In this document: piece after piece, positions 11,209 through 58,700 of the stretch | How the letters are laid out: each line of letters opens with the position of its first letter | Numbering within the stretch: position 1 is the first letter of the stretch | Source: Heptranchias perlo | Lineage: Eukaryota | NCBI RefSeq assembly: GCF_035084215.1 | Contig: NC_090339.1 | Coordinates: forward strand, 25,730,001-25,794,000 | Reading direction: 5' to 3' | DNA length: 64,000 nt | Translations under genes and position numbers: made by a program | The notes under the pieces: generated by a model | The model's input: the letters and a program-made list of their open reading frames with translations, nothing else | Databases searched by the model: none | Told to the model about the DNA's origin: nothing

Positions 11209-11284
11209 GTGTGCGGGGTTCCTGTTTAAGAAGGTTGGAAAGTTAGCTGCAACAGCAGTTGGTGGAGGCTTCTTCATGCTCCAG
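11209..11284 (+). CDS. FUNDC2: FUNDC2 coding exon 3
   Basis: ttttgcag| ... CAG|gtgaga, 76 nt. Encodes (W)[25 protein letters not shown], a hallmark FUN14 motif. Confidence 0.96.
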
Positions 11285-11843
11285 GTGAGACTCAGACATT
11301 GAATTGGGAAATCAAGAATCTTCTGTGCATGATGGAATGATTTACTTCATAATCTGAGGCTGAGGTACTTCAGGAAGCAGATACAATTGTGGGGGGTTGC
11401 TGGGGGTGGAAGAAAGAGAGAGCTGGGTCAAAACTTAAACTGGTGGTTTATTATAACCCATGTACAAACTGCATGTATATTTTGGAGCTTATATATGTAA
11501 TTGTTGATCCAGGCATTCAGTTTTGTAGAAAAATAAACAATCTTAATGCTTTTGATAGTTTCTGGGGTCCAAGTTGGATTTAGGCTGATATTCAACCCAC
11601 ATGGAAATGTAAAACACTTGCACCAATTAGGGCAACACAAACATCCATTCATCCCTGGCTGGCTGTGTATGCAAAGCATGCAATGTATTTGCCTTATGGA
11701 CATCTTATAAAAGACAAATCAGGTGAGTAGCCTGCATATTGGAGGAGAGTTGGTCCTATTAGATTACAGATGTATGATTTGAGTTACTGATTACATATGT
11801 GTATATGTAGACCCCCACACTTCGTAATATATACCAAGGGGTT

Positions 11844-13465
11844 CATCTCGGCCTCCTCCCGATATCCCCACCATCACAGAAGCCAGTATTCAGCCAATTC
11901 GATTCACTCCACTTGATATCAAGAAACGGCTGATTGCAAAGGCTGTGGGCCCCGACAACATCCCGGCTGTAGTGCTGAAGTCTTGTGCTCCAGAACTAGC
12001 CGTGCCTCTAGCCAAACTGTTCCAGTACAGCTACAACACTGGCATCTACCCAACAATGTGGAAAATTGCCCAGGTATGTCCTGTCCACAAAAAGCAGGAC
12101 AAATCCAATCCGGCCAATTACCACCCCATCAGTCTACTCAATCATCAGCAAAGCGATGGAAGGTGTCGTCAACAGTGCTATCAAGCGGCACTTAGTCTCC
12201 AATAACCTGCTCACTGATGTTCAGTTTGGGTTCCGCCAGGACCACTCGGCTCCAGACCTCATTACAGCCTTGGTCCAAACATGGACAAAAGAGCTGAATT
12301 CCAGAGGTGAGGTGAGAGTGATTGCCCTTGACATCAAGGCAGCATTTGGCTGAGTGTGGCACCAAGGGGCCCTAGTAAACTTGAAATCAATGGCAATCAG
12401 AGGGAAATCTCTCCAGTGGCTGGAGTCATACCTAGCACAAAGGAAGATGGTAGTGGTTGTTGGAGGCCAATCATCTCGGCCCCAGGACATTGCTGCAGGA
12501 GTTCCTCAGGGCAGTGTCCTAGGCCCAACCATCTTCAGCTGCTTCATCAATAACCTTCCCTCCGTCATAAGGTCAGAAATGGGGATGTTCACTAATGATC
12601 ACAGAGTGTTCAGTTCCATTCGCAACCCCTCAGATAATGAAGCAGTCCGTGCCCGCATGCAGCAAGACCTGGACAACATCCAGGCTTGGGCTGATAAGTG
12701 GCAAGTAACATTCGTGCCAGGCAATGACTATCTCCAACAAGAGAGAGTCTAACCACCTCCCCATGACATTCAACTGCATTACCAATGCCGAATGCCCCAC
12801 CATCAACGTCCGGGGGTTCACCATTGACCAGAAACTTAACTGGACCAGCCATATAAATACTGTGGCTACAAGAGCAGGTCAGAGGCTGGGTATTCTGTGG
12901 CGAGTGACTCCCCAAAGCCTTTCCATCATCTAGAAGGCACAAGTCAGGAGTGTGATGGAATACTCTCCACTTTCCTGGATGAGTGCAGCTCCAACAACAC
13001 TCAGAAGCTCGACACTATCCAGGACAAAGCAGCCCGCTTGATTGGCACCCCATCCACCACCTTAAACATTCATTCCCTTCACCGGCGCACTGTGGCTGCA
13101 GTGTGCACCATCCACAGGATGCACTGCAGCAACTCGCCAAGGCTTCTTCGACAGCACCTCCTAAACCCACGACCTCTACCACCTAGAAGGACAAGGGCAG
13201 CAGGCACATGGGAACAACACCACCTGCACATTCCCCTCCAAGTCTCACACCATCGCGACTTGGAAATAAATCACCGTTCCTTCATTGTCGCTGGGTCAAA
13301 ACCCTGGAACTCCCTTCCTAACAGCACTGTGGGAGAATTCACCACATGGACTGCAGCGTTTCAAAAGGCAGCTCACCAACACCTTCTCGAGGGCAATTAG
13401 GGAGGGGCAATAAATACTGGCCTTGCCAGCGATGTCCACATCCCACGAACGAATAATAAAAAAAT
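11844..13465 (+). mobile_element. CR1/L2-group LINE (Zenon-like family), 5'-truncated
   Basis: Frameshifted RT ([29 protein letters not shown]) and a 3' end gggcaataaat...cacatccc plus A-rich tail shared with the copies at 39.4, 60.1 and 62.8 kb. The subfamily name is inference. Confidence 0.88.
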
Positions 13466-13543
13466 ACAGCCCTGCACAGTAGGGATGAATTTTGCATGGC
13501 TTTTCACTATTATCTAAAACCTTGAGATTAAATCACATCAGTC

Positions 13544-13879
13544 ACAGTACTGTGCCTAACATTTGCTGTACTTGACCTGAGAGTGCTTGACATTGGCACT
13601 AAATACAAAAAGTGGGAAGTGTTCCATTCTCCAGCACTAAAATCCTTGGTCTTGAAATCACTCCTTCCCAACTAGAGATTTGGAATCTGCTCTAAATATT
13701 TACAATAATGAAATCTGCTGGGAGTACACAGAGACAAAAAGATATTTTGTGTAATTAGAATTGTGATTTAAGAAACAACCAGGAACTCCCAACAGATATA
13801 GTCTGTTTTATAAAACAATATCATCATTTTATTCAGGTAGCCAACAGCTATGTCAACTGCTTTGATCTTCATTTCTATT
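13544..13879 (-). repeat. Right arm of an inverted duplication flanking FUNDC2 exon 3
   Basis: Reverse complement of 10424-10746. Confidence 0.95.
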
Positions 13880-14721
13880 AGTGCTTCTGCTGTGTATTTA
13901 TTTTCTTTCCATGGGGTTTTTGTTCTGTTGCTTTACACTGGCAGCAGCTGTCCCAGTGCCTCCATTTCTCTATCAGTCTAACTGCAGATTTTCCTAAATG
14001 CAAGGTGAAGCCTGTCTTGTGTGTGGATTGATGTGTTTGAGGGAAGGATGAGGCAGGGAACCAGGAGACAGAATGTAAACAAGCCAGCAAACCGAAAACC
14101 AGAGTCTATTTGAAAGCTGCTTTTATTTAAGCAGTTGAGTTTGGTGTTGTCTTGAAAAATGCAGAGAGGCTGCAAAAAGTGGAAGAAGGTGGAGCTGGAA
14201 ACTAGTGAGGATTGGAGATATCCTGTTTTCCTCTTAAAGCAAGTGGATGATGTATCATGTCAAGATAAGACCAGGCAGTTGGCCAACTTTTTTTCCCTTG
14301 TCCTGCTAGCGCCGTGATTTTGTGCGCCTGCATTTCTCGGTCTGTATACGTTTGTGCTGTCCCCTCGTGGAGAGCGTGCGAATGAGTGCTGTTGAGCAGA
14401 AGTTAATCCAATCTCCAGAACACAAGTTAAAAGGTTTTGTTGATACTGCCCCCTTTCACTTCTGCTGTGGAAACTGGGATAACCAACTTCCTAATAACAC
14501 ATCCTTGTTTCCTCTTGATTTGGGGAGGAAGAGAAAAACTATATTGACAATAGTATGTGGTAAGAAACAGACACATTTGGTATAGCTTAGTACCATAACA
14601 AATGATGCATTTATCCACTAGGAGAATGTACTGCATGTCTTAATACTGAACCCCATGGTAAGTTGAGATTGTTAGAGCCTCCTCAAAGGTGGGTGTGGTG
14701 ATGCTCTAGTTTTCCTTGCAG

Positions 14722-14850
14722 ATTGCCAATCACACAGGGTACATCACTGTTGACTGGAAGCGAGTGGAGAGAGATGTGAACAAGGCAAAGAAGCAGTTGA
14801 AAATTGGCAAGAATAAGATTGTTCCGGAAGTACACAGCGCATTTGATGAG
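14722..14850 (+). CDS. FUNDC2: FUNDC2 coding exon 4
   Basis: tttccttgcag| ... GAG|gtaggg, 129 nt. Encodes [43 protein letters not shown]. Confidence 0.95.
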
Positions 14851-21364: not shown

Positions 21365-21489
21365 TCAGCTTTTCTTTTCTTGTTCTTTCAAAAAACCAGA
21401 ACAACAAACAGACTTCTTTCCATGTATCTTACAACACTTATGCATTTCATGGATCACTTGCTGACATTTGCTTTCCTGATAACGATGAG
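21365..21489 (-). CDS. CMC4: Cx9C motif-containing protein 4 (p8 MTCP1), terminal coding exon
   Basis: Minus-strand acceptor ttttacag|CT CAT..., 125 nt. Encodes (A)HRYQESKCQQVIHEMHKCCKIHGKKSVCCSGFLKEQEKKS*, in phase with the upstream exon. Confidence 0.93.
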
Positions 21490-23203
21490 CTGTAAAAGAA
21501 ACATGAAAAAGTATGATTCATCCCGTGATTATAGGTGTTCATTCAGTTTGTCTCTCGTACAGGAGCTTCTACCAGTGATCCCAGCAGAAGCTTTTTTGGG
21601 AGGGGGGAGAATCTCGTTCCTCCAGGAGTTACTACTGATTATTGGTGGAGTTTCTGGGGAAGGAGTTACTGAGCTGAACGATGTGATGGAGCTCAAATTG
21701 CATCACCATGTTTGCTTTTTGCCCACCATGCTTTTTTCTCTTCTGCCGAAGGCACTGACTCATAGTTCTATGGGTCCATGTGGCCAGTCCTCATATGTGA
21801 GTCTAGTCAGTGTGTGACAGGCTGTTGGATTATGGGAGGTATCACAGCAAAACCTGATCCTGTCCTTAACCAATATCCACAAGCACACATTCTAGCAGGA
21901 GCCACAGGAAAATTATTAGGAACAAGAACTTTATTTTTTCCTCCCATTCCTAGGTCATGGGCGCTGAGATTGATTGTAGAGTCCCCACTACTGTCTCAAC
22001 TAAAGCACTCTATACTGATGACAGCATAGTCCATCTTACTTACATTGTCAGGCCCATTAACTTCTCCAAGCTACTGGCCTGGAAGCAGGTATCAGTTGCA
22101 GGAGGGTCACAGCTTGACAAAGACTAGAAGGGGGAGAACACTGGCTGGGATTTGGAGGAAAAATAGAGGTAACACCCTAGAAGACAAAAAATCCTGACAG
22201 TCACAATAAGCAGTACAGGAAATGCCAAATAGAGGTATAATGGGTGACTAATGGATCATCTCTTCCACTGTATTTCATACATGCCAACCAACTGTGTTTA
22301 CTGACAAAAATCAGTACAACCAGACTCCTTTCTCCTCCTCTCCCAAGTCTAGCTCCTCATGAGTAATGTGGCTAATGCATCCGAACAAGTTCTGTGCCAC
22401 TCCCAGCACTCTTGAGATTGCAGCCTCTGTATACAGTAGGCAAGAATTAGCCAACAGGTGTTCTGGAAATGGATCACAATGAATGGAAGGGGAAGAATGG
22501 ATGGCAATGAAAGGGGCAGGGAAAGGGAGAATGGATGTTAATGGAAGAAAGGAGATAGCAGCTGAGAGCAGTGCTTTGGGGTAGGGAAATAAGGAAATTG
22601 CCAGAATTAACTGAGAGGGAGTGAGGAGAGTGTGCCAGCATGAACTGGGGGCTGGGACAGAATGTCAGATGAACATGGGGGGCGGGGGGGGGGGGAAAGA
22701 GGAGTGACAGCTTGAAATGGGGAAATGGAAGAAAAGTACTGGCTTAACTAGGTCAGAGGGGAAGAGTACCAGGTTTAATTGATGGGGGAGTATACTGATG
22801 CCAGTATAATCTGGGAGGGTGAATAAGAATGTGGGAATTGGATGGGGTACAATGCCTCTAAAGAGATGGGGTGTTGAATGGGGTACAATGTCTGTGTGAA
22901 CTGGGTCTGGAAGGGGGTTGGAAGTGGGAGAGTGACAAAATAACTTTTGGGTTAGTGATGGTCTGGTTGGTCTGTTGAAACTCCAAATGTCATTTGTTCT
23001 TCCCTTTTCTAAAGTTAAAAATCCTATTGTGAAGTATAAAAGTGCTTTGAGTTATCAGCTTTTTGGAAGCTGTTGATTAACCTGTGCTAGTCAGTTTTTT
23101 GAAGGTTATGCACAAAAGTATGAAGTTGTTTTTCAGTGTTGGAAGCTAAACTTCACACCAGACCATGTTGCATTGCGCAACTGCATTTGTTTTATGTTAT
23201 TAA

Positions 23204-38203: not shown

Positions 38204-38335
38204 GTATGAACGAATAGAAATCCCTATCCACGTAGTGCCACATGAAACCATTGGTAAAGTGTGCCTGGAGTCTGCTGTGGAACTTCCAAAAATTCTTTGT
38301 CAGGAGGAGCAGGATGCTTATAGAAGAATTCACAG
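38204..38335 (+). CDS. BRCC3: BRCC3 coding exon 6
   Basis: ttatag|, 132 nt. Encodes YERIEIPIHVVPHETIGKVCLESAVELPKILCQEEQDAYRRIH(S); donor AG|gtagag. Confidence 0.95.
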
Positions 38336-39433
38336 GTAGAGTAAGAAATGAGATGTAGCTTCCAGAATCAGACATTATTTATGTTGTATATATGATCTAT
38401 TGTCAATGAAGAACTGGAAGTCTGTTGGAACCATTTAATCCTTTGAATGGGCACATGATCACTCTAGAGAGAAAGTACCGAGGTCAGTGCTGTGGAGGAA
38501 TCTGCATCACAGTGCAGACTAAAGGTGTAAGATTTTGGACTTTCTGTCATAAAAGTGATTTACATTATGATTCTGTCAGTCACATTATGGTTCTGTTCAT
38601 TGGTTTTTATATAAACATTTGTATTTAAGATTTTGTTTTCCATTTTATAATATTTTTGTGCTTATCAAAATTATGGTGTCAATGCACCTAGTGTCACCAT
38701 CTAGTACTCCAAGATTAAGTACGATATGGGTCAGATACAGAATAAATTCCCCTGTACTTTGTCCCAACAATCTTCCAATCCAAGCCTCTAAAGAGCACCC
38801 TCTACTGCACCAGTGTGATACATACCCACATCAGCCATCTATATGATCTATCTTAGACTGGAATTACTGCTGAATTAAACCTAAATCTGCAGCAGATTTA
38901 AATTTGAATGTTAGAACCTGATTAAAGTTAAATATTCTTTGCTACAGATTCAAGCTCACAAGTATGAGGTTAAGACTGCCAAACTCATTTCAGTTAAGGC
39001 TTTTGATGGCTGTCAGAGGGTGTGGACTTTGACTGCCTCAGAGAGGTGAAAGGACAGCACTCAACCCAATGGACCATCCAGTCTTTCCCTTCTCCACTAT
39101 GATCAAATGCACTGATCCTGGTTCAGTTACACCTAATTTTTATTAATTAATATAATCTGACCAATATTTATTATATTCCATTGATCGCGCATATTATATT
39201 CCAGATATACTACGTGATTCTAATTATCTCATTACTGTCCACATCAGCAAAGCCCTTTTCACTCTGAAATTCCTGTGTTTTTGAACAGAATACTTCCATT
39301 TGAAGTCATTATTTTGAACCTGCTCTTGTTCCCATACAGTATATCTAAATACAGTAACGCTACTGTAACTCTACAGGCATCAGTCTTCTTCACCTCTTAT
39401 ATATACAATAATGAAACAGTCCTTCTCCCTGGA

Positions 39434-42025
39434 GAGTCCGGACCCCATGAAATCTCATGGCATCAGGTCAAACATGGGCAAGGAAAGCTCCTGCTGATTA
39501 CCACCTACCGCCCTCCCTCAGCTGATGAATCAGTCCTCCTCCATGTTGAACACCACTTGGAGGAAGCACTGAGGGTAGCAAGGGCACAGAATATACTCTG
39601 GGTGTGGGACTTCAATGTCCATCACCAAGAGTGGCTCGGTAGCACCACTGCTGACCGAGCTGGCCGAGTCCTGAAGGACATAGCTGCCAGACTGGGCCTG
39701 CGGCAGGTGGTGAGCGAACCAACACGAGGGAAAAACTTACTTGACCTCGTCCTCACCAATCTACCTGTCGCAAATGCATCTGTCCATGACAGTATTGGTA
39801 GGAGTGACCACCGCACAGTCCTCGTGCAGACGAAGTCCCGTCTTCGCACTGAGGACACCATCCAACGTGTTGTGTGGCACTACCACCGTGCTAAATGGGA
39901 TAGATTCAGAACAGATCTAGCAGCTCAAAACTGGGCATCCATGAGGTGCTGTGGGCCATCAGCAGCAGCACAATTGTATTCCAGCACAATATGTAACCTC
40001 ATGGCCCGGTATATTCCTCACTCTACCACTACCAATAAGCCAGGGGATCAACTCCAGTTCAATGAGGAGTATAGAAGAGCATGCCAGGAGCAGCACCAGG
40101 CATACCTAAAAATGAGGTGCCAACCTGGTGAAGCTACAACTCAGGACTACATGCATGCTAAACATCAGAAGCAACAGAGCTAAGCGATTCCACAACCAAC
40201 GGATCAGATCAAAGCTCTGCAGTCCTGCCACATCCAGTCGTGAATGGCGGTGGACAATTAAACAACTAATGGGAGGAGGAGGCTCTGTAACCATCCCCAT
40301 CCTCAATGATGGCGGAGTCCAGCACGTGAGTGCAAAAGACAAGGCTGAAGCGTTTGCAACCATCTTCAGCCAAAAGTGCTGAGTGGATGATCCATCTCGG
40401 CCTCCTCCCGATATCCCCACCATCACAGAAGCCAGTCTTCGGCCAATTCGATTCACTCCACGTGATATCAAGAAATGGCTGAGTGCACTGGATACAGCAA
40501 ACGCTATGGGCCCCGACAACATCCCGGCTGTAGTGCTGAAGACTTGTGCTCCAGAACTAGCTGCGCCTCTAGCCAAGCTGTTCCAGTACAGCTACAACAC
40601 TGGCATCTACCTGACAATGTGGAAAATTGCCCAGGTATGTTCTGTCCACAAAAAGCAGGACAAATCCAATCCGGCCAATTACCGCCCCATCAGTCGACTC
40701 TCAATCATCAGCAAAGTGATGGAAGGTGTCGTCGACAGTGCTATCAAGCGGCACTTACTCACAATAACCTGCTCATCGATGCTCAGTTTGGTTTCCATCA
40801 GGACCACTCGGCTCCAGACCTCATTACAGCCTTGGTCCAAACATGGACAGAAGAGCTGAATTCCAGAGGTGAGGTGAGAGTGACTGTCCTTGACATCAAG
40901 GCAGCATTTGACCGAGTGTGGCACCAAGGGGCCCTCGTAAAATTGAAGTCAATGGGAATCAGGGGGAAAACTCTCCAGTGGCTGGGGTCATACCTAGCAC
41001 AAAGGAAGATGGTAGTGGTTGTTGGAGGCCAATCATCTCAGCCCCAGGACATTGCTGCAGGAGTTCTTCAGCTGCTTCATCAATGACCTTCCCTCCGTCA
41101 CCAGGTCAGAAATGGGGATGTTCGCTGATGATTGCACAGTGTTCAGTTACATTTGCAACCCCTCAGATAATGAAGCAGTCCGTGCCCGCATGCAGCAAGA
41201 CCTGGACAACATCCAGGATTGGGCTGATAAGTGGCAAGTAACATTCGCGCCAGTCAACTGCCAGGCAATGACCATCTCCAACGAGAGAGAGTCTAACCAC
41301 CTCCCCTTGACATTCAACGGCATTACCATCGCCGAATCCCCCACCATGAACATCCTGGGGGTCACCATTGACCAGAAACTTAACTGGACCAGCCATATAA
41401 ATACTGTGGCTACAAGAGCAGGTCAGAGGCTGGGTATTCTGCGGCGAGTGACTCACCTCCTGACTCCCCAAAGCCTTTCCACCATCTACAAGGCACAAGT
41501 CAGAATTGTGATGGAATACTCTCCACTTGCCTGGATGAGTGCAGCTCCAACAACACTCGAAGCTCAACACCATCCAGGACAAAGCAGGCCGCTTGATTGG
41601 CACCCCATCCACCACCCTAAACATTCACTCCCTTCACCACCGGCGCATTGTAGCTGCAGTGCGTACCATCCACAGGATGCACTGCAGCAACTCGCCAAGG
41701 CTTGTTCGACAGCACCTCCCAAACCAGCGACCTCTACCACCTAGAAGGACAAGAGCAGCAGGCGCATGGGAACACCACCACCTGCACGTTCCCCTCCAAG
41801 TCACACACCATCCCGATGTGGAAATATATCGCCTTTCCTTCATCGTCGCTGGGTCAAAATCCTGGAACTCCCTTCCTAACAGCGCTGTGGGAAAACCTTC
41901 ACCACACGGACTGCAGCGGTTCAAGAAGGCGGCTCACCACCACCTTCTCGATGGCAATTAGGGATGGGCAATAAATGCTGGCCTCGCCAGCGACGCCCAC
42001 ATCCCATGAGCGAATTTTTTTTTAA
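39434..42025 (+). mobile_element. CR1/L2-group LINE (Zenon-like family), endonuclease to 3' end
   Basis: APE endonuclease motifs (YRPP, DFNVHH, LDLVLTN, SDH) and RT motifs (LDIKAAFDRVWH, FADD) with frameshifts; family 3' tail. Confidence 0.92.
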
Positions 42026-42257
42026 AAAAGGAGGCTCTGTTAGCTCCATCTTAAATTTACTTTTAGTTTATTGGTGTTAATATTATTGGAAACAGAATAA
42101 TTGTATTCTGGTGGTTTAGTATATTGTAATGTGGATCCTGCCTCTTTTTTGGTATGGTTGAAATTTACTAATCTAGTTCACTTTCTTGCTGCCAATAGAT
42201 TTGTGTATCCAACAGAAGGTTCTCCATACAGCTGTAACTCTTTATTATTTGTTTCAG

Positions 42258-42301
42258 CCTGACACATCTGGACCCAATAACCAAGATTCATAATGGATCA
42301 G
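42258..42301 (+). CDS. BRCC3: BRCC3 coding exon 7
   Basis: gtttcag|, 44 nt. Encodes LTHLDPITKIHNGS, then G|gtaaat (phase 1). Confidence 0.94.
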
Positions 42302-43153
42302 GTAAATAATGGCTCAATGCCTCCACAACCTTTTTTTAAAAAAAATTGCACATTAAATGGTGTAATAGAAGAGTTCAGCCGCAGACTTGTGTCTTTGATC
42401 CTCATGGTTGCTGGAGAAACAATAATAGGGTGGGAGGAACAATGTGGAAGTCAAAGATTTCCATTTCACAGAAGAGCTCTTTTCCCCTCCCTGAGTTCAC
42501 AAAGGACTTCTTCCCCCTTCCCCCAGTTCACAGAGGTATGCTGCAGGGAGGATAATTAACTATGTGCTTAAACTTCTATATAGAAGAGACAAAATTACAG
42601 ACAACAGCACTGTGAAAAGTGATGCTTAAAGCTTTGCCACTGGTATTCTTTGCGTACTTGTGCATATTATTCACAAATGTATAGCGCTAAGTTCAAGTGC
42701 ATCTTGAAGGATTACTGCTGCCAGAAGTAAAAGTTTTTTTTTATAATTTAGAAAACTTTCAAGATATTGCTATGAGGCTGCTTGATTTGTCATGACATTG
42801 AAAGTTTTATGGTGTTTGTCTGCAGTATAATTGGAGCATGTATGGAGTTATGCCACAGATACACAGGCAGTGTATGTCACATTACAGTTGTAGAATTATA
42901 GCTGATAGATAGAACTGGTGGCACTAGGTTAAAATGTGGAGCGTTTTGTGAAATAACACATGTTCTGTGGAAATTGCCACCCTGAACTAGGGCTCATTGT
43001 TAACTATTTGAATGTGTGCCTGTCTGGCATTATTGGATCTGCTTTCTTTACTGTTCATGGTAGTCATGATGTGGAGATGCCGGTGATGGACTGGGGTTGA
43101 CAATTGTAAACAATTTTACAACACCAAGTTATAGTCCAGCAATTTTATTTTAA

Positions 43154-43194
43154 ATTCACAAGCTTTCGGAGACTTCCTCCTTCCTCAGGTAAAT
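43154..43194 (-). ncRNA. Minimal type I hammerhead ribozyme motif (Penelope pseudo-LTR)
   Basis: Reverse complement of the motif at 46826-46866. Confidence 0.65.
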
Positions 43195-44413
43195 GTTCAG
43201 GATCTCCTTGAAGCCTACGCATTTATACATATAGAACAATAAATGGTGTTTACAGACTGCCCCTGCAACTGCCCGTTGCCAAGGCAATCACCGTGTTCAG
43301 ACAGAGAGGTGTCACCTGCAGAACCCCCGAATACACATTCAACAAAAAAACAAACAGGGAAAAAAAACAGAGAAGAAAAACAGAGAGAGGCAGAAATATC
43401 CGGAAGGCAGAGAGAGCCAGCAAATGACCCATTATATTAAAAACAGATAACATTTGTTCGCTGGTGGGGTAACGTGTAGCGTGACATGAACCCAAGATCC
43501 CGGTTGAGGCCGTCCTCATGGGTGCGGAACTTGGCTATCAATTTCTGCTCGACGATTTTGCGTTGTCGTGTGTCTCGAAGGCCGCCTTGGAGTACGCTTA
43601 CCCGAAGGTCGGTGGATGAATGTCCATGACTGCTGAAGTGTTCCCCGACTGGGAGGGAACCCTCCTGTTTGGCGATTGTTGCGCGGTGTCCGTTCATCCG
43701 TTGTCGCAGCGTCTGCATGGTCTCGCCAATGTACCATGCTCTGGGGCATCCTTTCCTGCAACGTATGAGGTAGACAACGTTGGCCGAGTCACAGGAGTAT
43801 GAACCATGCACCTGGTGGGTGGTGTCCTCTCGTGTGATGGTGGTATCTGTGTCGATGATCTGGCATGTCTTGCAGAGGTTACCGTGGCAGGGTTGTGTGG
43901 CGTCGTGGACGCTGTTCTCCTGAAAGCTGGGTAATTTGCTGCGAACGATGGTCTGTTTGAGGTTGGGTGGCTGTTTAAAGGCGAGTAGTGGAGGTGTGGG
44001 GATGGCCATAGCGAGGTGTTTGTCCTCATTGATGACATGTTGAAGGCTGCGGAGAACATGGCGTAGTTTCTCCGCTCCGGGGAAGTACTGGACGACAAAG
44101 GGTACTCTGTTGGTTGCGTCCCGTGTTAGTCTCCTGAGGAGGTCTATGCGATTTTTTGCTGTGGCCCGTCGGAACTGTCGATCGATGAGTCGAGCGTCAT
44201 ATCCCGTTCTTACTAGGGCGTCTTTCAGCGTCTGTAGGTGTCCATCGCGTTCCTCCTCGTCTGAGCAGACCCTGTGTATTCGCAGGGCCTGTCCATAGGG
44301 GATGGCCTCTTTGACGTGGTTAGGGTGGAAGCTGGAAAAGTGGAGCATCGTGAGGTTGTCCGTGGGCTTGCGGTAGAGTGAGGTGCTGAGGTGCCCGTCT
44401 TTGATGGAGATTC

Positions 44414-46585
44414 GTGTGTCCAAGTCTCGCGGCGGACACAGAGGAATTCATCAGGAGAATGAGGCTCCGGGAATTCTACCACAAACCCCAAGATTTCAGC
44501 AGCGAACCCAATGAGACAATCGACGATCCGGAACAGCAGACAGAGGGATCCGCGGTACAGCAACCGAAGAGGAAAGAGTCAAACTGGACTCCTCCGGAGG
44601 GTCGCTGCCCTCAGCTGGACATGTATGCTCAAGCTGTCAGGAAATGCGTCAATGCCAGATTCATCAGCCGCACTCAGAAGACAGTCCAGAATGTCACCCG
44701 AGCACAACGCAACGCCATCAACGCTCTCAAGACCAACCGCAACATCGTCATCAAACCAGCGGACAAAGGAGGAGCCATAGTCATACAGAACAGAACAGAC
44801 TATTGCAAAGAAGCATACCGACAACTGGACAACCAGGAACACTACAGACGGTTACCCGCAGATCCGACCAAAGAACACACCCACCAGCTCAACAAACTGA
44901 TCAAGACCTTCGATCCAGACCTTCAAAGCATCCTACGCACTCTCATCCCACGTAATCCCCGCGTGGGAGACTTCTACTGCCTCCCAAAGATACACAAAGC
45001 CAACACACCCGGACGTCCTATCGTATCAGGCAACGGAACCCTGTGTGAGAACCTCTCTGGATACATCGAGGGCATCCTGAAACCCATCGTACAGGGAACC
45101 CCCAGCTTCTGTCGCGACACTACAGACTTCCTACAAAAACTCAGTACCCACGGACCAGTTGAACCAGGAACACTTCTCACCACGATGGACGTCTCGGCAC
45201 TATACACCAGTATCCCCCACGATGACGGCATCGCTGCGACAGCATCAATACTCAACACCAACAACAGCCAATCTCCGGAAGCCATCCTACAACTCATCCG
45301 CTTCATCCTGGATCACAATGTCTTCACCTTCGATAACCAGTTCTTTACCCAAACACACGGAACAGCCATGGGGACCAAATTCGCACCCCAATACGCCAAC
45401 ATTTTCATGCACAAGTTCGAGCAGGACTTCTTCACTGCACAAGACCTCCAACCAACACTATACACCAGATACATCGACGACATTTTCTTTCCATGGACCC
45501 ACGGCAAGGAATCACTAAAGAGACTACACGATAACATCAACAAGTTCCATCCCACCATCAAGCTCACCATGGACTACTCCTCAGAATCAGTTTCTTTCTT
45601 GGACACACGAATCTCCATCAAAGACGGGCACCTCAGCATCTCACTCTACCGCAAGCCCACGGACAACCTCATGATGCTCCACTTTTCCAGCTTCCACCCT
45701 AACCACGTCAAAGAGGCCATCCCCTATGGACAGGCCCTGCGAATACACAGGGTCTGCTCAGACGAGGAGGAACGCGATGGACACCTACAGACGCTGAAAG
45801 ACGCCCTAGTAAGAACGGGATATGACGCTCGACTCATCGATCGACAGTTCCGACGGGCCACAGCAAAAAATCGCATAGACCTCCTCAGGAGACTAACACG
45901 GGACGCAACCAACAGAGTACCCTTTGTCGTCCAGTACTTCCCCGGAGCGGAGAAACTACGCCATGTTCTCCGCAGCCTTCAACATGTCATCAATGAGGAC
46001 AAACACCTCGCTATGGCCATCCCCACACCTCCACTACTCGCCTTTAAACAGCCACCCAACCTCAAACAGACCATCGTTCGCAGCAAATTACCTAGCTTTC
46101 AAGAGAACAGCGTCCACGACGCCACACAACCCTGCCACGGTAACCTCTGCAAGACATGCCAGATCATCGACACAGATACCACCATCACACGAGAGGACAC
46201 CACCCACCAGGTGCATGGTTCATACTCCTGTGACTCGGCCAACGTTGTCTACCTCATACGTTGCAGGAAAGGATGCCCCAGAGCATGGTACATTGGCGAG
46301 ACCATGCAGACGCTGCGACAACGGATGAACGGACACCGCGCAACAATCGCCAAACAGGAGGGTTCCCTCCCAGTCGGGGAACACTTCAGCAGTCATGGAC
46401 ATTCATCCACCGACCTTCGGGTAAGCGTACTCCAAGGCGGCCTTCGAGACACACGACAACGCAAAATCGTCGAGCAGAAATTGATAGCCAAGTTCCGCAC
46501 CCATGAGGACGGCCTCAACCGGGATCTTGGGTTCATGTCACGCTACACGTTACCCCACCAGCGAACAAATGTTATCTGTTTTTAA
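44414..46585 (+). CDS. Penelope-like RT + GIY-YIG endonuclease ORF (5'-truncated, uninterrupted)
   Basis: RT motifs FYCLPKIHK, GRPIVS, MDVSALYTSI, QTHGTAMG, RYIDDIF; CxxC; GIY-YIG motif NVVYLIRC...WYIGET...R...H. The listed start falls in the inversion junction, so it is not the native start. Confidence 0.92.
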   Translation: MCPSLAADTEEFIRRMRLREFYHKPQDFSSEPNETIDDPEQQTEGSAVQQPKRKESNWTPPEGRCPQLDMYAQAVRKCVNARFISRTQKTVQNVTRAQRNAINALKTNRNIVIKPADKGGAIVIQNRTDYCKEAYRQLDNQEHYRRLPADPTKEHTHQLNKLIKTFDPDLQSILRTLIPRNPRVGDFYCLPKIHKANTPGRPIVSGNGTLCENLSGYIEGILKPIVQGTPSFCRDTTDFLQKLSTHGPVEPGTLLTTMDVSALYTSIPHDDGIAATASILNTNNSQSPEAILQLIRFILDHNVFTFDNQFFTQTHGTAMGTKFAPQYANIFMHKFEQDFFTAQDLQPTLYTRYIDDIFFPWTHGKESLKRLHDNINKFHPTIKLTMDYSSESVSFLDTRISIKDGHLSISLYRKPTDNLMMLHFSSFHPNHVKEAIPYGQALRIHRVCSDEEERDGHLQTLKDALVRTGYDARLIDRQFRRATAKNRIDLLRRLTRDATNRVPFVVQYFPGAEKLRHVLRSLQHVINEDKHLAMAIPTPPLLAFKQPPNLKQTIVRSKLPSFQENSVHDATQPCHGNLCKTCQIIDTDTTITREDTTHQVHGSYSCDSANVVYLIRCRKGCPRAWYIGETMQTLRQRMNGHRATIAKQEGSLPVGEHFSSHGHSSTDLRVSVLQGGLRDTRQRKIVEQKLIAKFRTHEDGLNRDLGFMSRYTLPHQRTNVICF

Positions 46586-46825
46586 TATAATGGGTCATTT
46601 GCTGGCTCTCTGCCTTCCGGATGTTTCTGCCTCTCTCTGTTTTTCTTCTCTGTTTTTTTTCCCTGTTTGTTTTTTTGTTGAATGTGTATTCGGGGGTTCT
46701 GCAGGTGACACCTCTCTGTCTGAACACGGTGATTGCCTTGGCAACGGGCAGTTGCAGGGGCAGTCTGTAAACACCATGTATTGTTCTATATGTATAAATG
46801 CGTAGGCTTCAAGGAGATCCTGAAC

Positions 46826-46866
46826 ATTTACCTGAGGAAGGAGGAAGTCTCCGAAAGCTTGTGAAT
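46826..46866 (+). ncRNA. Minimal type I hammerhead ribozyme motif (Penelope pseudo-LTR)
   Basis: AUUUAC-CUGAGGA-A-GGAGG(AAG)UCUCC-GAAA-GC-UU-GUGAAU: CUGANGA and GAAA cores, stem II, stem I and a palindromic AGCU mini stem III. Confidence 0.68.
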
Positions 46867-47733
46867 TTAAAATAAAATTGCTGGACTATAACTTGGTGTT
46901 GTAAAATTGTTTACAATTCTTTACTGTTGGTTATCTTCTTATCTGAATACTGTTGTTGATGCAAGTGATTATAGCGAACAAAGCTATTCCTTTCTTTGAG
47001 CGCTCAGTATTTCTAAATGGAGATGGGAGGGGGAAGAGTGCCCTTGTACTTGGGGAGGAGGGAAAAAGTGCCTGTGTACTGGGGGGGAGACAGCAATAGA
47101 GTCTCTGAATTCAAGAGAGGGGAGAGTGCTTGTTTAAGTAGCTTTTGGGATAGTCATGGTGTAGTTGGCATATTGAATGTGGATGAACCTAAATGTCATT
47201 TAATTTTCCTGGAAACTTTTTTAGATTAAAAATCTATCAATTTTGAATTTAGTAAGTGTTCTAGGGTTAATCGCAATGTACCATTTTTAATGTAAAAATT
47301 CATAACTTACAAGGGGATCATCCCCCTGGACCCCCCCCCCCACTGAAATTCATGTGCCAATAGCTGCAGGAAGGGTGGGGGTCAGCATTTAGAAGGAGTA
47401 TATACAATTCTAAATTTGCTGCCTACAGCCATTGGTGAGCTAGAATTTGTGGAGCTCGTACAGTGTTGGAGAAGTTGAGCCTAGAGGTAACAAAGGCATA
47501 GATGGGGGTTCAGTGACGGGCATGGTAGTGAGATAGGAACAGAAGTACGCAATATTATCTGGGTGGAAATAGGTGGTTTTGGTGATGGACAGGACGTGTA
47601 ATATGACAGGGAACTAAGCTTGTGCACCACAGGGTACATAACCTGTGCGATGTGAAACATGTGATTTTCTCCACATGCAAATTGATTCAATAGATTATTT
47701 GTTTTTAAAGGGCAACATTACAGAAGTTAGTTT

Positions 47734-49790
47734 TCATAGAATCATAGAAGGTTACAGCACAGAAGGAGGCCATTCGGCCTATCGAGTCTGCGCTGGCTCT
47801 ATGCATGAGCAATCCAGCTAGTCCTACTGCATTGCCCTATCCCCGTAGCCCTGCACATTTTTTCATTTCAAGTACTTATCCAGTTCCCTTTTGAAGGCCA
47901 TGATTGAATCTGCCTCCGCCACTCCTTCGGGCTGTGCATTCCAGATCCTAACTACTCGCTGTGTAAAAAAGTTTTTTCTCATATCACCTTTGGTTCTTTT
48001 GCCAATCACCTTAAATCTATGTCCTCTGGTTCTTGACCATTCCGCCAATGGGAACAGTTTCTTTCTATCCGCTCTGTCTAGACCCTTCATGATTTTGAAC
48101 ACCTATATCAAATCTCCTCTCAAACTTCTCTGTTCCAAGGAGGTCAATTCCAGCCTCTCCAGTCTATCCACATAATTGAAGTCCCTCATCCCTGGAATCA
48201 TTCTAGTCACACTCCTCTGCACCGTCTCTTAAGGCCTTCACATCCTTCCTAAAGTACGGTGCCCAGAATTGGACACAACACTCCAGTTGCAGCCGAACCA
48301 GTGTTTTATAAAGTTTCAACACAATTTCCTTGCTTTTGTACTCTATGCCTCTATTTATAAAGCCCAGGACCCCGTATGCTTTTTTAACCGCTTTCTCAAC
48401 CTGCCCTGCCACCTTCAACGATTTATGCACGTAAATTATCCCTCTGTTCCTCCACCCCTTTTAGAATTGTGCCCTCTAGTTTGTATTGCCTCTCCTCATT
48501 TTTCCTACCGAAATGTATCACCTCACATTTTTCCATGTTAAACTTCATCTGCCACATATCCACCCATGCCACCAGAGTGTCTATATCCGCTTGAAGTCTA
48601 TTGCTATCCTCCTTACTGTTCACTATCCTTCCAAGTTTTGTGTCACCTGCAAATTTTGAAATTGTGCCCTGTACTCCCAAGTCCAAGTCATTTATATATA
48701 TATATATATATATATATCAAGAAAAGCAGTGGTCCCAGCACCGACCCCTGGGGAACACCACTGCACACCTCCCTCCAGTCTGAAAAACATCCACTCACCA
48801 CTACTCTCTGTTTCCTGTCACTTAGCCAATTCTGTATCCATGTTGCTATTGCCCCCTTTATTCTATGGGCTGCAACCTTAATGGAAAGCCTACCATGTGG
48901 CACTTTATCAAACGCTTTTTGAAAATCCATATACACTACATCAAGTGCATTGCCCTCATCGACCCTCTCTGATACCTCATCAAAAAACTCTATCAAGTTG
49001 GTTAAACACAATTTGCCTTTAACAAATCCGTGCTGGCTTTCCCTAATCAATCCACACTCGTCCAAGTGACTGTTAATTCCGTCCTGGATTATCGTTTCCA
49101 AAAGTTTCCCCACCACAGAGGTTAAACTGACTGGCCTATAGTTGCTGGGTTTATCTTTACACCCTTTCTTTGAACAAGGGTGTAACATTTGCAATTCTCC
49201 AGTCCTCTGGCATCACCTCCGTATCTAAGGATGTCTGGAAGATTATGGCCAATACCTCCGCAATTTCCCCCCTTACTTCCCTCAGCATCAGAGGGTACAT
49301 CCCACCCGGACCGGGTAACTTATCTATTTTAAGTACAGCTAGCCTTTCTAGTACCTCTTCTTTCTCAATTTTTAGCCCCTCCAGTATCTTAACTATATCT
49401 TCCTTTACCGAGACTCTGGCAGCAGCATCTTCCTTAGTAAAGACCGATGCAAAGAATTCATTTAATACCTTAGCCATTCCCACTGCCTCCATGAGCTAAT
49501 CTCCTTTATGGTCCCTAATTGGCCCCACCCCTCCTCTTACTACCCGTTTTCTGTTAACATGTCTGTAGAAGACTTTATTGGATTCCCTTTTATGTTGGTC
49601 GCTCGTCTATTCTCATACTTCTCTTTGCCGCTCTTATTTCCTTTTTCACTTCCCCTCTGAACTTTCTATATTCTGCCTGGTTCTCACTTGTGTTATCAAC
49701 CTGACACCTGCCATATGCTGCTTTTTTCCGCTTCATCTTATTCTTTATCTCCTTTGTCATCCAGGCAGCTCTGGCTTTAGTTGCGGCCTG
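47734..49790 (-). mobile_element. CR1 LINE, degraded ORF2
   Basis: [39 protein letters not shown]; internal (TA)n expansion at ~48693-48717; (atagaatc)n tail. Confidence 0.92.
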
Positions 49791-50434
49791 ACCCCATCTA
49801 ATACCTTACTATTTTTTACTCTACGGCTATCCTTCTCTCCTTTAAGTTAGTTTGAAACAAAAAAAAGTTGCCAAATCTGGTAGGAGAAATCTGACATCTA
49901 ACTAACTTTCTCAGTCTCCACTGTTGGATATATTCTGTGGTGCATTAGAAACTGGAATTCGGCTGGTCGGAAGCAGGCCTATTATCAAATGAATCTGAAC
50001 GCTGAATTAGGAGAAAAAAATGAGGGGGAGGAATTGTTCGATCCTAAAATTGGGGCAAATTATGTCCTGCCCTGCAGTAATATTCTTATTGAATATGGAA
50101 AATTATTGATCCAATTAAAGATGAATGATTGGGTACAAGGCACCACTGTGAATGAGCTCCTTGATTCCGATAAGTAAGTATATTTGCCTAGATATAAGCA
50201 AATCGCTGAGTAGGTGTAATTCTGAATATTTTTAATAGGGGTGGGCTAGATTCAGGGTTTGGTGAAATTTACCCTCGAGTTTCATTTGTAGTACTTAGTT
50301 GCTCTGAATTAGTTACATATTTCTTAGGATTCAACCGTGTTTTATGTTTTGTGTACAAAAATATTCTGTGGTTTGAGAATTTTTTTAATTCCTTGACTGG
50401 AAATATTTACCTTTTTCATTTTTTATTTCTCTAG

Positions 50435-50586
50435 TTTTCACAAAGAATCTGTGCAGCCAGATGTCGTCCATTAGCGGTCCTCTGCTACAGTGGCTGGAGG
50501 ATCGTCTAGATCAGAACAAACAGCACATCCTGGAACTTCAGCGAGAGAAGGAACAGCTCCTCCAGGAACTATCAGTCCTAAAGTGA
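50435..50586 (+). CDS. BRCC3: BRCC3 coding exon 8 (terminal)
   Basis: Long pyrimidine tract and ctag|, 152 nt. Encodes (V)FTKNLCSQMSSISGPLLQWLEDRLDQNKQHILELQREKEQLLQELSVLK*. Spliced CDS is 786 nt (261 aa). Confidence 0.95.
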
Positions 50587-55538: not shown

Positions 55539-57362
55539 TATATATTTGATTTTTTTTTTACTTTTTATTCATGACCAATAAAATGGGAGATCCCTACATA
55601 TAAAATCTTCTATCTAGTGTGTGTTTGTCACACAAAAAATCCTGATTGGCACAAATTTCCCTGGAGCAAATAAAGAAAAGCAACTTACTTCACTGCTGCT
55701 GACCAAATCTTTCTCACATTTAGTTTCAAATCTTTTCAGCGGCCATGTGCTCACTCCCCCACACTAGAACCACCCTCTTACAACAGGATGACCTATAGTT
55801 CATCATCAACAACACCCTGGTAGATCTGCTCATGTATAAAATTTTGAGTCCATCACACTTCAAAGTGTGAAAAGTATTGGAGAAAAAAGAGAAGTAGTCA
55901 TTTCATGCTTCTTCTGACCTTGAGCTGGACATTTACAAGCATCTGCCAATCTGCCGACTTGGCTCATAAACAGCAATTTACCTCTAATTGATCGCAGATC
56001 TACTACTTACAAGAATTAGACTGGGGATGAAATTGGTCTGTGGTGGTACCGCAAAACGAACAATAATGAATTGGCAGCCCGCTTTCCACCCTGACTCTTT
56101 TATTTTCCTCAGGCTATATAAATGTAACTTTTTTTATTATTTGAAGAAAAGCAGGAAGTTCCCTGAGTGTCCTGGCAACATTCCTCCCAACCAAAAACAG
56201 ATTGTCTGGTCGTTTATCTCATTTGCTATTAGTAGGTTCTTATTTTGTCCAAATTGGCTGCTATGTTTGCCTACAGCACAACAGTGACTGCACTTAAAAA
56301 AAAAAAGTAGTTAGTTGGTTGTGAAGTACTTTGGGATGACTTGAGGGCATGAATATAAATTAATTAATTCATTTTCTTTGCTTTGCTTTTCTTTCCCTCT
56401 CAAAGTGCTCATCTCAAGGGTATTTTTGATTCCCAGTTGGACACAGCAATTAATAAAAAATGCAGGTCATTAATTTTTACTTCAGTGTCTGTGAATGCTC
56501 TTCATTGCACCTGAGTCACATACTGCTAACTCACAACCTCTGAAGTTCTACCTATGTATAATCAACTGTCTCAAATCATAATATGAACTGGTAAAACTGC
56601 AACCTAACACTTTGATGTTTGTTGGATCTACATGGAGGTTCACTCTAGCCAGGAAAATGAAATGTTTTACAACTGCTAATTCCTTATCCCCAGAAAAATA
56701 GAATCATCCTGAGGGAACTCGTCAAGCTCCTTGAGAAGTTAAAATGGTACCATTACTATGCCTTGTCCAAGCAATGCTCCCAGAATACAGCTATTATAAG
56801 CTATCGACAATATAACTTTTGAGGCATTGGCTGATTCTTACCAGCAAATTTTAAATCTGTCTTGTTCCTGTCTCTTGTCCCTATAAGACGACAATTAGCT
56901 TAGACAGTAATAATAAAACATTGATTTGCTCAAAACTGTGACCTGAAATGCAGCCCTTTTTAGAAGCCTAAAGATATGGCTTAATTAACAGATCTGAGCA
57001 AGGTAATTTAATATTTGTGTTTAGTGTCTGGTTTTAGCCTTTCTCCTTTTTTAAATGTAATGCTATTATTTGTATATATCCAAATTAGATTCCCAGCTTT
57101 GGTTTGTCACTTGAAGCATCAAATGTATAGCCTATAACAATCTTGTCAATTGTCCCTCCTCTTGAACAGGAAGCTATTCATAAAGCAATCATACACGCTC
57201 CCTGGCTGGCAGTCAAAGGGATACACAGGTGCAGCCCAGAGCACACTAGTGATCATTGGTTGATTTAGTTGCAGCCTGGAACCAAACGGCAATAAATTGT
57301 CCAAAAACCATCACATTCAAGACAGCCCACAGAGAAGGCAAGTATAAACGGACACGGTGAAA

Positions 57363-57411
57363 ATGTCCAGTGGAAAACAAGATGTGATAATCATTGGAGG
57401 GGGCTTGTCGG
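57363..57411 (+). CDS. MAO: Flavin amine oxidase (monoamine oxidase-like), coding exon 1; remainder not found in window
   Basis: aaaATG TCC AGT GGA AAA CAA GAT GTG ATA ATC ATT GGA GGG GGC TTG TCG G|gtgagt = MSSGKQDVIIIGGGLS(G). An FAD-binding GxGxxG motif is split by a phase-1 consensus donor in the last Gly, as in vertebrate MAOA/MAOB exon 1. Only 16 codons of evidence. Confidence 0.68.
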
Positions 57412-58700
57412 GTGAGTTTCTTTGCTCTTCTTCCTTTTCAGTTTTATGCACTTCTTCCACTACATCGTCCAGCACGAAGGGCTAAGAGCTCGATTCATTC
57501 AAATGAAGACAGTTCTGGGAGCAATTTATGCTTTATGAATGAAAGGGTATTTTGAATCAATAATTATGCTTTAGGACAATAAATCAGGAAACAATAGTCT
57601 GAATTGCTGTCACCCCATATTTGTAAGTGAAGGGGATTAATACTTTTATGGATATGATAGAATTTATGCATAATTTCTGAACGATGTAATTTTTTCCCAA
57701 TTTATCCGAAGAATATTAAAGCAGCAAAATGTTTTGGATTTCAATTAACTTTAATTTAGTTTATTTAAAATGCAGACTCCATGTCTGTGGGCGCTGCACA
57801 AAACATATTGTAGTGAGCTATCTGTTACACAGAAAGCATTTAAATGCTGTCCTCTGTTAAAAGCCGAGCTGCAAACAACGCGTGTGATTTCAGAGCTGTT
57901 ATAAATGTGGGACGCATTTTAAAGATGGCATTCTATATGGTTGCATTATTAGTCATGAAGCCAGTAACAATGTGTATTATCACTGAGAGTACAGACCTTC
58001 AGGTTAATCCTTCCTCTGAGCCAATTCCCCTTCTACCGCCCCAGCAATGTAATCAGCTCTCACTGTTCAAACAGGAAGATTTTTTTTTAGTTCAACAGGT
58101 AACTGAAAATAAACAAAAGGATGTAAAATATAATATGTTTTAATAATGCTTTTATTTTTTTAATGTATTATGTTGCTGTTTAAAAAGGATCCTTGTAGAG
58201 TAGAGATTAGAGGACTAATTTTGTGATCCCCTGAGCAAGGCTACCTGTCCAAGCTGCTTGCCTGGCCTAACTGGGCGGGGAGGGGCCACAAATGCCTTTG
58301 TGGAGACTGGTGCACCCCCACTCACTCGGCACCCCAGACATCACATAAAGCCCCAATTGAGACTTGCGGAGTCCTCACCCCTGGTTCCGCCCCAGCACAT
58401 CATCTGCCTTGTAAGGGGCAGATGGAGCTGCTGCCTCTTACAAAGCAGCCATGAAACACCTGCAAATGGTAGAGTTCCGGTGTAATTGACTCTCTGCTGT
58501 TCTCCTGGGGGTTTCACAGGTCTCCCACTGGAATTACAATGGGCGGTCGGCAGATTCCCCACAGAATTTCAGGGCTCGGTGTCTATTGTTGAGGCTCCAG
58601 CTACTTAACTGCCATTATGATGGTGGGATAATAAAAACTGTTAGAGATTATGCTTAGGGGACGTGTTATGATCTTCCTTTTAGTAAACAAAGTCTTAGTG

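What the first reader, a model, noticed from the sequence alone, without database searches (positions are those of the whole stretch)
57363..57417. MAO-like gene directly downstream of FUNDC2-CMC4-BRCC3: candidate retained MAO ohnolog
Seen: a 49-nt exon encoding MSSGKQDVIIIGGGLS(G) with a consensus phase-1 donor, too short for the ORF track. Known: human MAOA/MAOB begin with this motif and intron position and lie near FUNDC1 on Xp11.3, whereas the paralogous FUNDC2-CMC4-BRCC3 block on Xq28 continues into VBP1 with no MAO. Inference: this could be a whole-genome-duplication sister of the MAO-A/B locus, kept in this lineage and lost in mammals. I recall a third MAO lineage being reported in non-tetrapod jawed vertebrates but cannot verify that here.
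Basis: partly seen in the sequence, partly recalled or inferred. Interest (0 to 1): 0.7.

Follow-up and report, generated by a model that had tools for sequence, protein, structure and literature searches.

The report
Shark MAO F gene, first exon
This short stretch is the first exon of an intact shark gene for MAO F, a fish monoamine oxidase published in 2025 and reported lost in land vertebrates, and its neighbouring genes show that it likely arose as a whole-genome-duplication twin of the gene behind human MAO A and B.

Summary
Window 57363-57411 is a 49-nt phase-1 first exon. Fourteen more GT-AG exons follow beyond the window and give an intact 519-aa monoamine oxidase, identical to the annotated protein P0259; two junctions are joined in 4 of 4 runs laid. 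It groups with the published MAO F proteins (100/99), and nesting in MAO A/B is rejected (p-AU 3.6e-6). MAO F, with its CMC4-BRCC3 neighbours and shark orthologues, is described in PMC11833248. The genome's mao A/B sits on C11 beside FUN14-, EFHC2- and NDP-like genes. One point goes beyond that paper: both loci read FUN14 gene, MAO, opposite-strand GPR34-type gene, and three further families pair C11 with C15. Whole-genome-duplication origin is therefore likely (about 0.85). The published loss is tetrapod-wide, not just mammalian. A third, older MAO-like gene on C38 is shared with lampreys; this scan noted it before on other DNA (e1-9836724). Low interest.

The parts
57363..57411 (+). Coding exon 1 of MAO F (49 nt, phase 1), start of the FAD-binding Rossmann motif
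   Evidence: identical N-terminus in P0259
57412..64000 (+). Intron 1 of MAO F, opening with the donor GTGAGT (57412-57417); about 9.4 kb, repeat-rich, runs past the window end. Exons 2-15 lie beyond the window at G000:C15:25796799-25829912 (lengths 95, 138, 105, 92, 142, 150, 160, 97, 54, 58, 98, 112, 63, 147; all introns GT-AG), followed 15 kb later by a single-exon GPR34-type gene on the opposite strand at G000:C15:25844791-25845828
   Evidence: joints for exons 6-7 and 7-8; the exon 1-2 junction itself was not seen joined; GPR34-type gene
11210..14814 (+). Two exons of a FUN14-domain gene (FUNDC2 by inference from its neighbours)
21371..21493 (-). CMC4 exon
38262..50559 (+). Two 3' exons of BRCC3 (BRCC36_C domain); the gene ends about 6.8 kb before MAO F exon 1

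Best explanation
The exon begins an intact 15-exon gene for MAO F, predicted to be a mitochondrial flavoenzyme that breaks down monoamines, and likely a whole-genome-duplication twin of the MAO A/B gene. Shown here: the exon structure, the open 519-aa frame, the tree position, the conserved residues and the gene neighbourhoods. Inferred from human MAO and tarpon MAO F: FAD is bound covalently at Cys398; Tyr399 and Tyr436 form the aromatic cage; Lys297 serves oxygen turnover; the amine is oxidised to an imine and then an aldehyde, with H2O2 released; a C-terminal helix (about 492-510) anchors the protein in the outer mitochondrial membrane. The gate pair Phe200/Met327 equals that of tarpon MAO F, so MAO-A-like behaviour is predicted (clorgyline-sensitive, deprenyl-insensitive). 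Inferred origin: duplication of an ancestral FUNDC-MAO-GPR34 segment with its whole chromosome, most simply in the jawed-vertebrate round, with this copy later lost in tetrapods.
For: Gene model open, with all 14 introns GT-AG, and identical to P0259. Joints at exons 6-7 and 7-8 in 4 of 4 runs laid, at the predicted bases. Tree of 27 rows: MAO F clade 100/99, holding four proteins that ties to the paper's MAO F list (tarpon XP_036404314.1, Chiloscyllium XP_043560518.1, Amblyraja XP_032886353.1, Stegostoma XP_048400495, version .2 here against .1 in the paper) and coelacanth XP_005992072.1; list. AU tests reject nesting in A/B (p 3.6e-6) and a C15+C11 sister pair (p 1e-43). Identity 84.6-92.5% to four shark and ray MAO F proteins, 73.5% to tarpon MAO F, 73.9% to the C11 gene. 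Active-site table. Paralogy: on C11, FUN14, DM10, NDP-like and mao are all on one strand, with a GPR34-type gene on the opposite strand 0.5 Mb on; on C15, FUN14 and MAO F share a strand and the GPR34-type gene is opposite. The C11 receptor is the closest paralogue in the genome (E 3e-72, next best 6e-52). PUFD, CRIC and MAP7 also hit both C11 and C15.
Against: No enzyme data exist here for this protein; function is carried over from tarpon. The exon 1-2 junction was not seen joined. The paired families were chosen from recalled human Xp/Xq paralogue pairs, not at random. Of 9 other Pfam families searched, 5 hit both contigs (one, Neur_chan_LBD, is too large to inform) and 4 did not (DM10, BRCC36_C, CMC4, Prefoldin). 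The GABRA3/GABRB4 3' neighbours of bony-fish MAO F are not adjacent here: the C15 hits lie at 0.85-1.38 Mb (a lower-bound search). The Met gate is not general in cartilaginous fish: the other 5 of 6 chondrichthyan MAO F rows have Leu or Ile. The bootstrap tree used LG+G4 without the mixture model. No cyclostome MAO A/B/F protein was in my sets, so the timing of the duplication rests on the paper.
Confidence: 0.9

Rival explanations
1. MAO F arose by a segmental duplication of the FUNDC-MAO-GPR34 block in early jawed vertebrates, not by whole-genome duplication.
For: Locally only two neighbour pairs are shown (FUN14, GPR34 type). PMC11833248 and its preprint speak only of a duplication event.
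Against: Pairs also occur far from the locus on both contigs: PUFD at C11 42.8 / C15 30.4 Mb, CRIC at 26.0 / 9.2 Mb, MAP7 at 3.7 / 65.4 Mb. CRIC and MAP7 each occur on four contigs.
Confidence: 0.08
2. MAO F and MAO A/B are ohnologs of the first vertebrate duplication (1R), with lamprey having lost one copy or being misplaced in the tree.
For: CRIC and MAP7 sit on four contigs each, and I did not test which pairs are sisters. The paper's tree has one lamprey sequence and only LSD1/LSD2 as outgroups.
Against: The paper recovers the lamprey protein as sister to both clades, which fits a duplication after the lamprey split; Simakov et al. place the second round there.
Confidence: 0.15
3. The exon is a stray or pseudogene fragment, belongs to another flavoprotein, or is a shark-specific copy of mao A/B.
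For: The 17-residue peptide alone matches many Rossmann-fold proteins weakly.
Against: Complete open 15-exon frame, spliced contigs, orthologues across sharks, rays, chimaera, coelacanth and ray-finned fish, AU rejections.
Confidence: 0.01

Closest known systems
MAO F (called MAO C in the preprint); Merello Oyarzun et al. 2025, PMC11833248
   Same: Same clade; CMC4 and BRCC3 on the 5' side; second MAO in a non-tetrapod jawed vertebrate; Tyr-Tyr cage, FAD cysteine, lysine and Phe/Met gate as in tarpon MAO F.
   Different: No GABA-receptor cluster directly 3'. The paper's text does not mention FUNDC, ohnologs or WGD. The Met gate residue is Leu or Ile in the other five chondrichthyan MAO F rows.
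MAO A, MAO B (PDB 2bxr, 2z5x, 1gos) and fish MAO A/B
   Same: Full-length homology (E 9e-254); 68-70% identity to mouse A and rat B; exons 1-13 have the same lengths as in the C11 mao A/B gene; C-terminal hydrophobic helix.
   Different: Separate clade (AU p 3.6e-6); different chromosome; Met at MAO A positions 325 and 335, where mouse A has Ile/Ile and rat B Val/Tyr.
C38 MAO-like lineage of sharks and lampreys (P0108, P0135; earlier scan note e1-9836724)
   Same: Same protein family; most intron positions are shared.
   Different: 48% identity; groups with lamprey and a mollusc protein outside the MAO A/B/F clade; not on a contig of the C11/C15 quartets.

Membership tests
MAO F | Monophyly with published MAO F proteins, sister to MAO A, B and A/B | tested here: met
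   100/99 clade with accessions from the paper's Table S1; also SH-aLRT 99 and 100
MAO F | CMC4 and BRCC3 on the 5' side | tested here: met
MAO F | GABRA3/GABRB4 on the 3' side (bony fish; only partly kept in cartilaginous fish per the paper) | tested here: inconclusive
   No ligand-gated channel hit near 25.8 Mb (lower bound); a GPR34-type gene is adjacent, and GPR34 appears in the text of the paper's Fig. S1. The paper does not require this feature in sharks.
MAO F | Coexists with a separate MAO A/B gene flanked by NDP and EFHC2 | tested here: met
   C11 gene in the A/B clade; NDP-like cystine-knot exon (named from recall) at 44.56 Mb, DM10 domains at 44.64-44.69 Mb
MAO F | Phe/Met gating pair as in tarpon MAO F | tested here: met
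   Phe200/Met327; present in 6 of 6 ray-finned rows but only 1 of 6 chondrichthyan rows, so a weak marker
MAO family | FAD-linked Cys, Tyr-Tyr aromatic cage, oxygen-site Lys, C-terminal membrane helix | tested here: met
   Cys398, Tyr399, Tyr436, Lys297; best 19-residue hydropathy 2.45 at residue 492; sequence-level test only
MAO family | Amine oxidase activity and mitochondrial location | not testable with these tools
   Measured for tarpon MAO F only
Vertebrate WGD ohnolog pair | Both copies lie in paralogous segments with several other paired genes | tested here: met
   FUN14, GPR34 type, PUFD, CRIC, MAP7; hand-picked families, no genome-wide statistic
Vertebrate WGD ohnolog pair | Duplication dated to 1R or 2R with cyclostome sequences | not tested
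   No cyclostome MAO A/B/F protein was returned or 29

The most novel reading that the evidence does not exclude
MAO F is the retained whole-genome-duplication sister of MAO A/B (FUNDC-MAO-GPR34 block on two paralogous chromosomes, an origin not stated in the MAO F paper), and sharks carry three MAO lineages: A/B, F and an older one shared with lampreys. The vertebrate ancestor would then have had two MAO-family genes, not the single one of the published model.
Probability: 0.75. Interest if true: 0.35.

Novelty: already known. Interest (0 to 1): 0.2.

Why it matters
The gene itself is ordinary: it is annotated, and its lineage was named and assayed in 2025. The small additions are the paralogon evidence for how MAO F arose, and a natural Met versus Leu/Ile difference at the gate position among MAO F proteins that could be used to test why tarpon MAO F ignores deprenyl. 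The third lineage on C38 would revise the vertebrate MAO gene count, but it is a different locus and this scan has noted it already.

Tried and rejected
PDB search with the 20-residue exon peptide: not diagnostic. Run search: no RNA holder listed on record. Laying four runs on the 10-kb exon 1-2 stretch: swamped by intron repeats, no exon 1-2 joint among the 15 joints shown (206 not shown), so no verdict. The ESM Atlas gave no result for the GPR34-type protein. Exons 14-15 of the C11 gene were not found, so that gene entered the trees as exons 2-13 only (433 aa). C38 as a fourth ohnolog of the same block: rejected, because it falls outside invertebrate MAOs and C38 has no CRIC, MAP7, PUFD or FUN14 hit. 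Other PF01593 hits (C1, C2, C10, C29, C33, C39) read as polyamine or spermine oxidase, demethylase or other relatives (names recalled from the peptides) and were not followed. The careful tree did not finish; the quick tree was shown and a smaller careful tree was built. No structure prediction was run.

Full report
Observation. The window shows ATG at 57363, 49 coding bases and GTGAGT at 57412, reading MSSGKQDVIIIGGGLSG. An in-frame stop lies 18 bases upstream. A motif-plus-donor pattern, written after seeing the hit, occurs once in the window and in 0 of 200 Markov simulations. Alone, the peptide matches only weakly and unspecifically in the PDB. Pfam searches of the genome place FUN14, CMC4 and BRCC36_C exons upstream in the stated order.

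The gene. The window is G000:C15:25730001-25794000, and amino-oxidase hits follow directly. Using exon lengths recalled for human MAO and then tblastn with fetched proteins, I found 15 exons over 42.5 kb, all introns GT-AG, with one open 519-aa frame. It is letter-for-letter the stored protein P0259, which its source names 'amine oxidase [flavin-containing]-like'. Contigs of 4 of 4 runs laid join exons 6-7 and 7-8 at the predicted bases; 2 of 4, from relatives, join exons 5-6 within one base. Those runs are only guessed to be RNA and represent at most three samples. The exon 1-2 junction was not seen. The nearest proteins are from sharks and rays, so the genome is a cartilaginous fish.

Family placement. 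Three trees agree: 53 rows (quick, mixture model), 54 rows (quick) and 27 rows (careful, LG+G4), each a hand-picked subset of the proteins returned. The C15 protein lies in a clade (100/99) sister to MAO A, B and A/B (98/96). and the source name tie five rows of that clade to accessions in the MAO F column of the paper's Table S1, among them the assayed tarpon enzyme. Forcing C15 into A/B, or beside the C11 gene, is rejected (p-AU 3.6e-6 and 1e-43). Of 217 proteins sorted by identity, 19 were nearer MAO F, 122 nearer A/B, 4 frog proteins tied, 7 were C38-like and 65 distant; 18 of the 19 are named fishes or coelacanth and one is unnamed. This agrees with, but does not prove, absence in tetrapods.

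Mechanism. All MAO hallmarks are present by alignment to mouse MAO A and rat MAO B: Cys398, Tyr399, Tyr436, Lys297, Tyr61, Phe344 and a hydrophobic C-terminal stretch at about 492-510. The best PDB matches are MAO A and B. The gate pair is Phe200/Met327, as the paper reports for tarpon MAO F. That enzyme localises to mitochondria, oxidises tyramine, dopamine, serotonin, phenethylamine and kynuramine, barely touches benzylamine, and is inactivated by clorgyline but not deprenyl. I infer the same for this protein. Against generalising: five other chondrichthyan MAO F rows and the coelacanth have Leu or Ile at the gate.

Origin. The genome's mao A/B lies on C11, exon 1 at 44.548 Mb (also 49 nt, phase 1), preceded on the same strand by an NDP-like exon (name recalled), DM10 domains and a FUN14 gene. 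Fifteen kb past the MAO F stop is a single-exon receptor whose best PDB match is GPR34 and whose closest paralogue in the genome lies on C11, 0.5 Mb past mao A/B. Both loci thus read FUN14 gene, MAO on the same strand, GPR34 type on the opposite strand. PUFD, CRIC and MAP7 also hit both contigs, the last two on four contigs each. I chose these three from recalled human Xp/Xq pairs. Of 9 Pfam families searched besides the oxidase, 4 did not hit both contigs and 1 is too large to inform. I put whole-genome-duplication origin at about 0.85. The jawed-vertebrate round is the simplest timing, given the paper's lamprey placement and the model of PMC7269912 (passages), but I did not test it.

What is known. 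PMC11833248: I read parts 1-4 of 7 of the text (abstract, results, conclusion, first methods), term searches, and part 1 of 2 of the supplement; figures were not visible. It names MAO F, finds it in cartilaginous fish, early ray-finned fish, coelacanth and lungfish, flanked 5' by CMC4 and BRCC3, and lost in the tetrapod ancestor. Its text and that of the preprint 10.1101/2024.08.20.608864 (passages only; supplements not seen) have no occurrence of WGD, ohnolog or FUNDC. Searches for an explicit ohnolog statement listed no other MAO paper making it; the library lacks most subscription journals. PMC10244343 (passages) describes MAO and MAO-like clades across animals; I did not see its supplementary trees.

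Side finding. A third MAO-like gene on C38 (P0108, with a copy on C1237) is 48% identical to both others. It groups with other shark proteins and lamprey P0135 (99/99), outside the clade that joins vertebrate MAOs with bivalve, centipede and sea-star proteins. The 14 members of the P0135 cluster include sea lamprey accessions but not the paper's lamprey MAO A/B/F, so sea lamprey likely has both.

Verdict. Real, correctly read by the first stage, and already known as MAO F. The ohnolog argument is a modest addition. Interest 0.2.

Noticed in passing
G000:C38:24.83-24.86 Mb (L043-L047); copy on C1237:90-133 kb: Third MAO-like gene (P0108) of an older lineage shared with lampreys; exons 9+10 and 14+15 appear fused; the protein ends in SKL. 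No bony-vertebrate member among the best 120 of 1078 hits. The C1237 copy may be a haplotig.
   Followed up: partly
G000:C15:25844791-25845828 (L036): GPR34-type receptor 3' of MAO F, 43% identical to a GPR34-type gene near mao A/B on C11: a second retained paralogue pair in this block.
   Followed up: partly
window 57343-57362: The leader reads TATAAA then ACG in frame five codons before the ATG; one shark orthologue (P0005) is annotated from a Met at that position and three others (P0006, P0242, P0255) from three codons upstream, so the start differs among shark annotations.
   Followed up: no
G000:C12:34593816-34594007 (L084): Prefoldin hit nearly identical in protein to the C15:38.35 Mb exon but running on without the intron: possibly a processed copy of a VBP1-like gene.
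   Followed up: no
G000:C10:18.58-18.72 Mb (L016, L020-L024, L027-L030): Tandem cluster of several amino-oxidase-domain genes that look like polyamine oxidases (name recalled).
   Followed up: no
G000:C38:2.9-8.9 Mb: At least seven similar single-exon GPCR genes (373-aa open frames) spread over 6 Mb: a local receptor expansion.
   Followed up: no
alignment, MAO A position 181: The residue matching MAO B Cys172 is Asn in mouse MAO A, tarpon MAO F and this protein, whereas PMC11833248 writes Gln.
   Followed up: no
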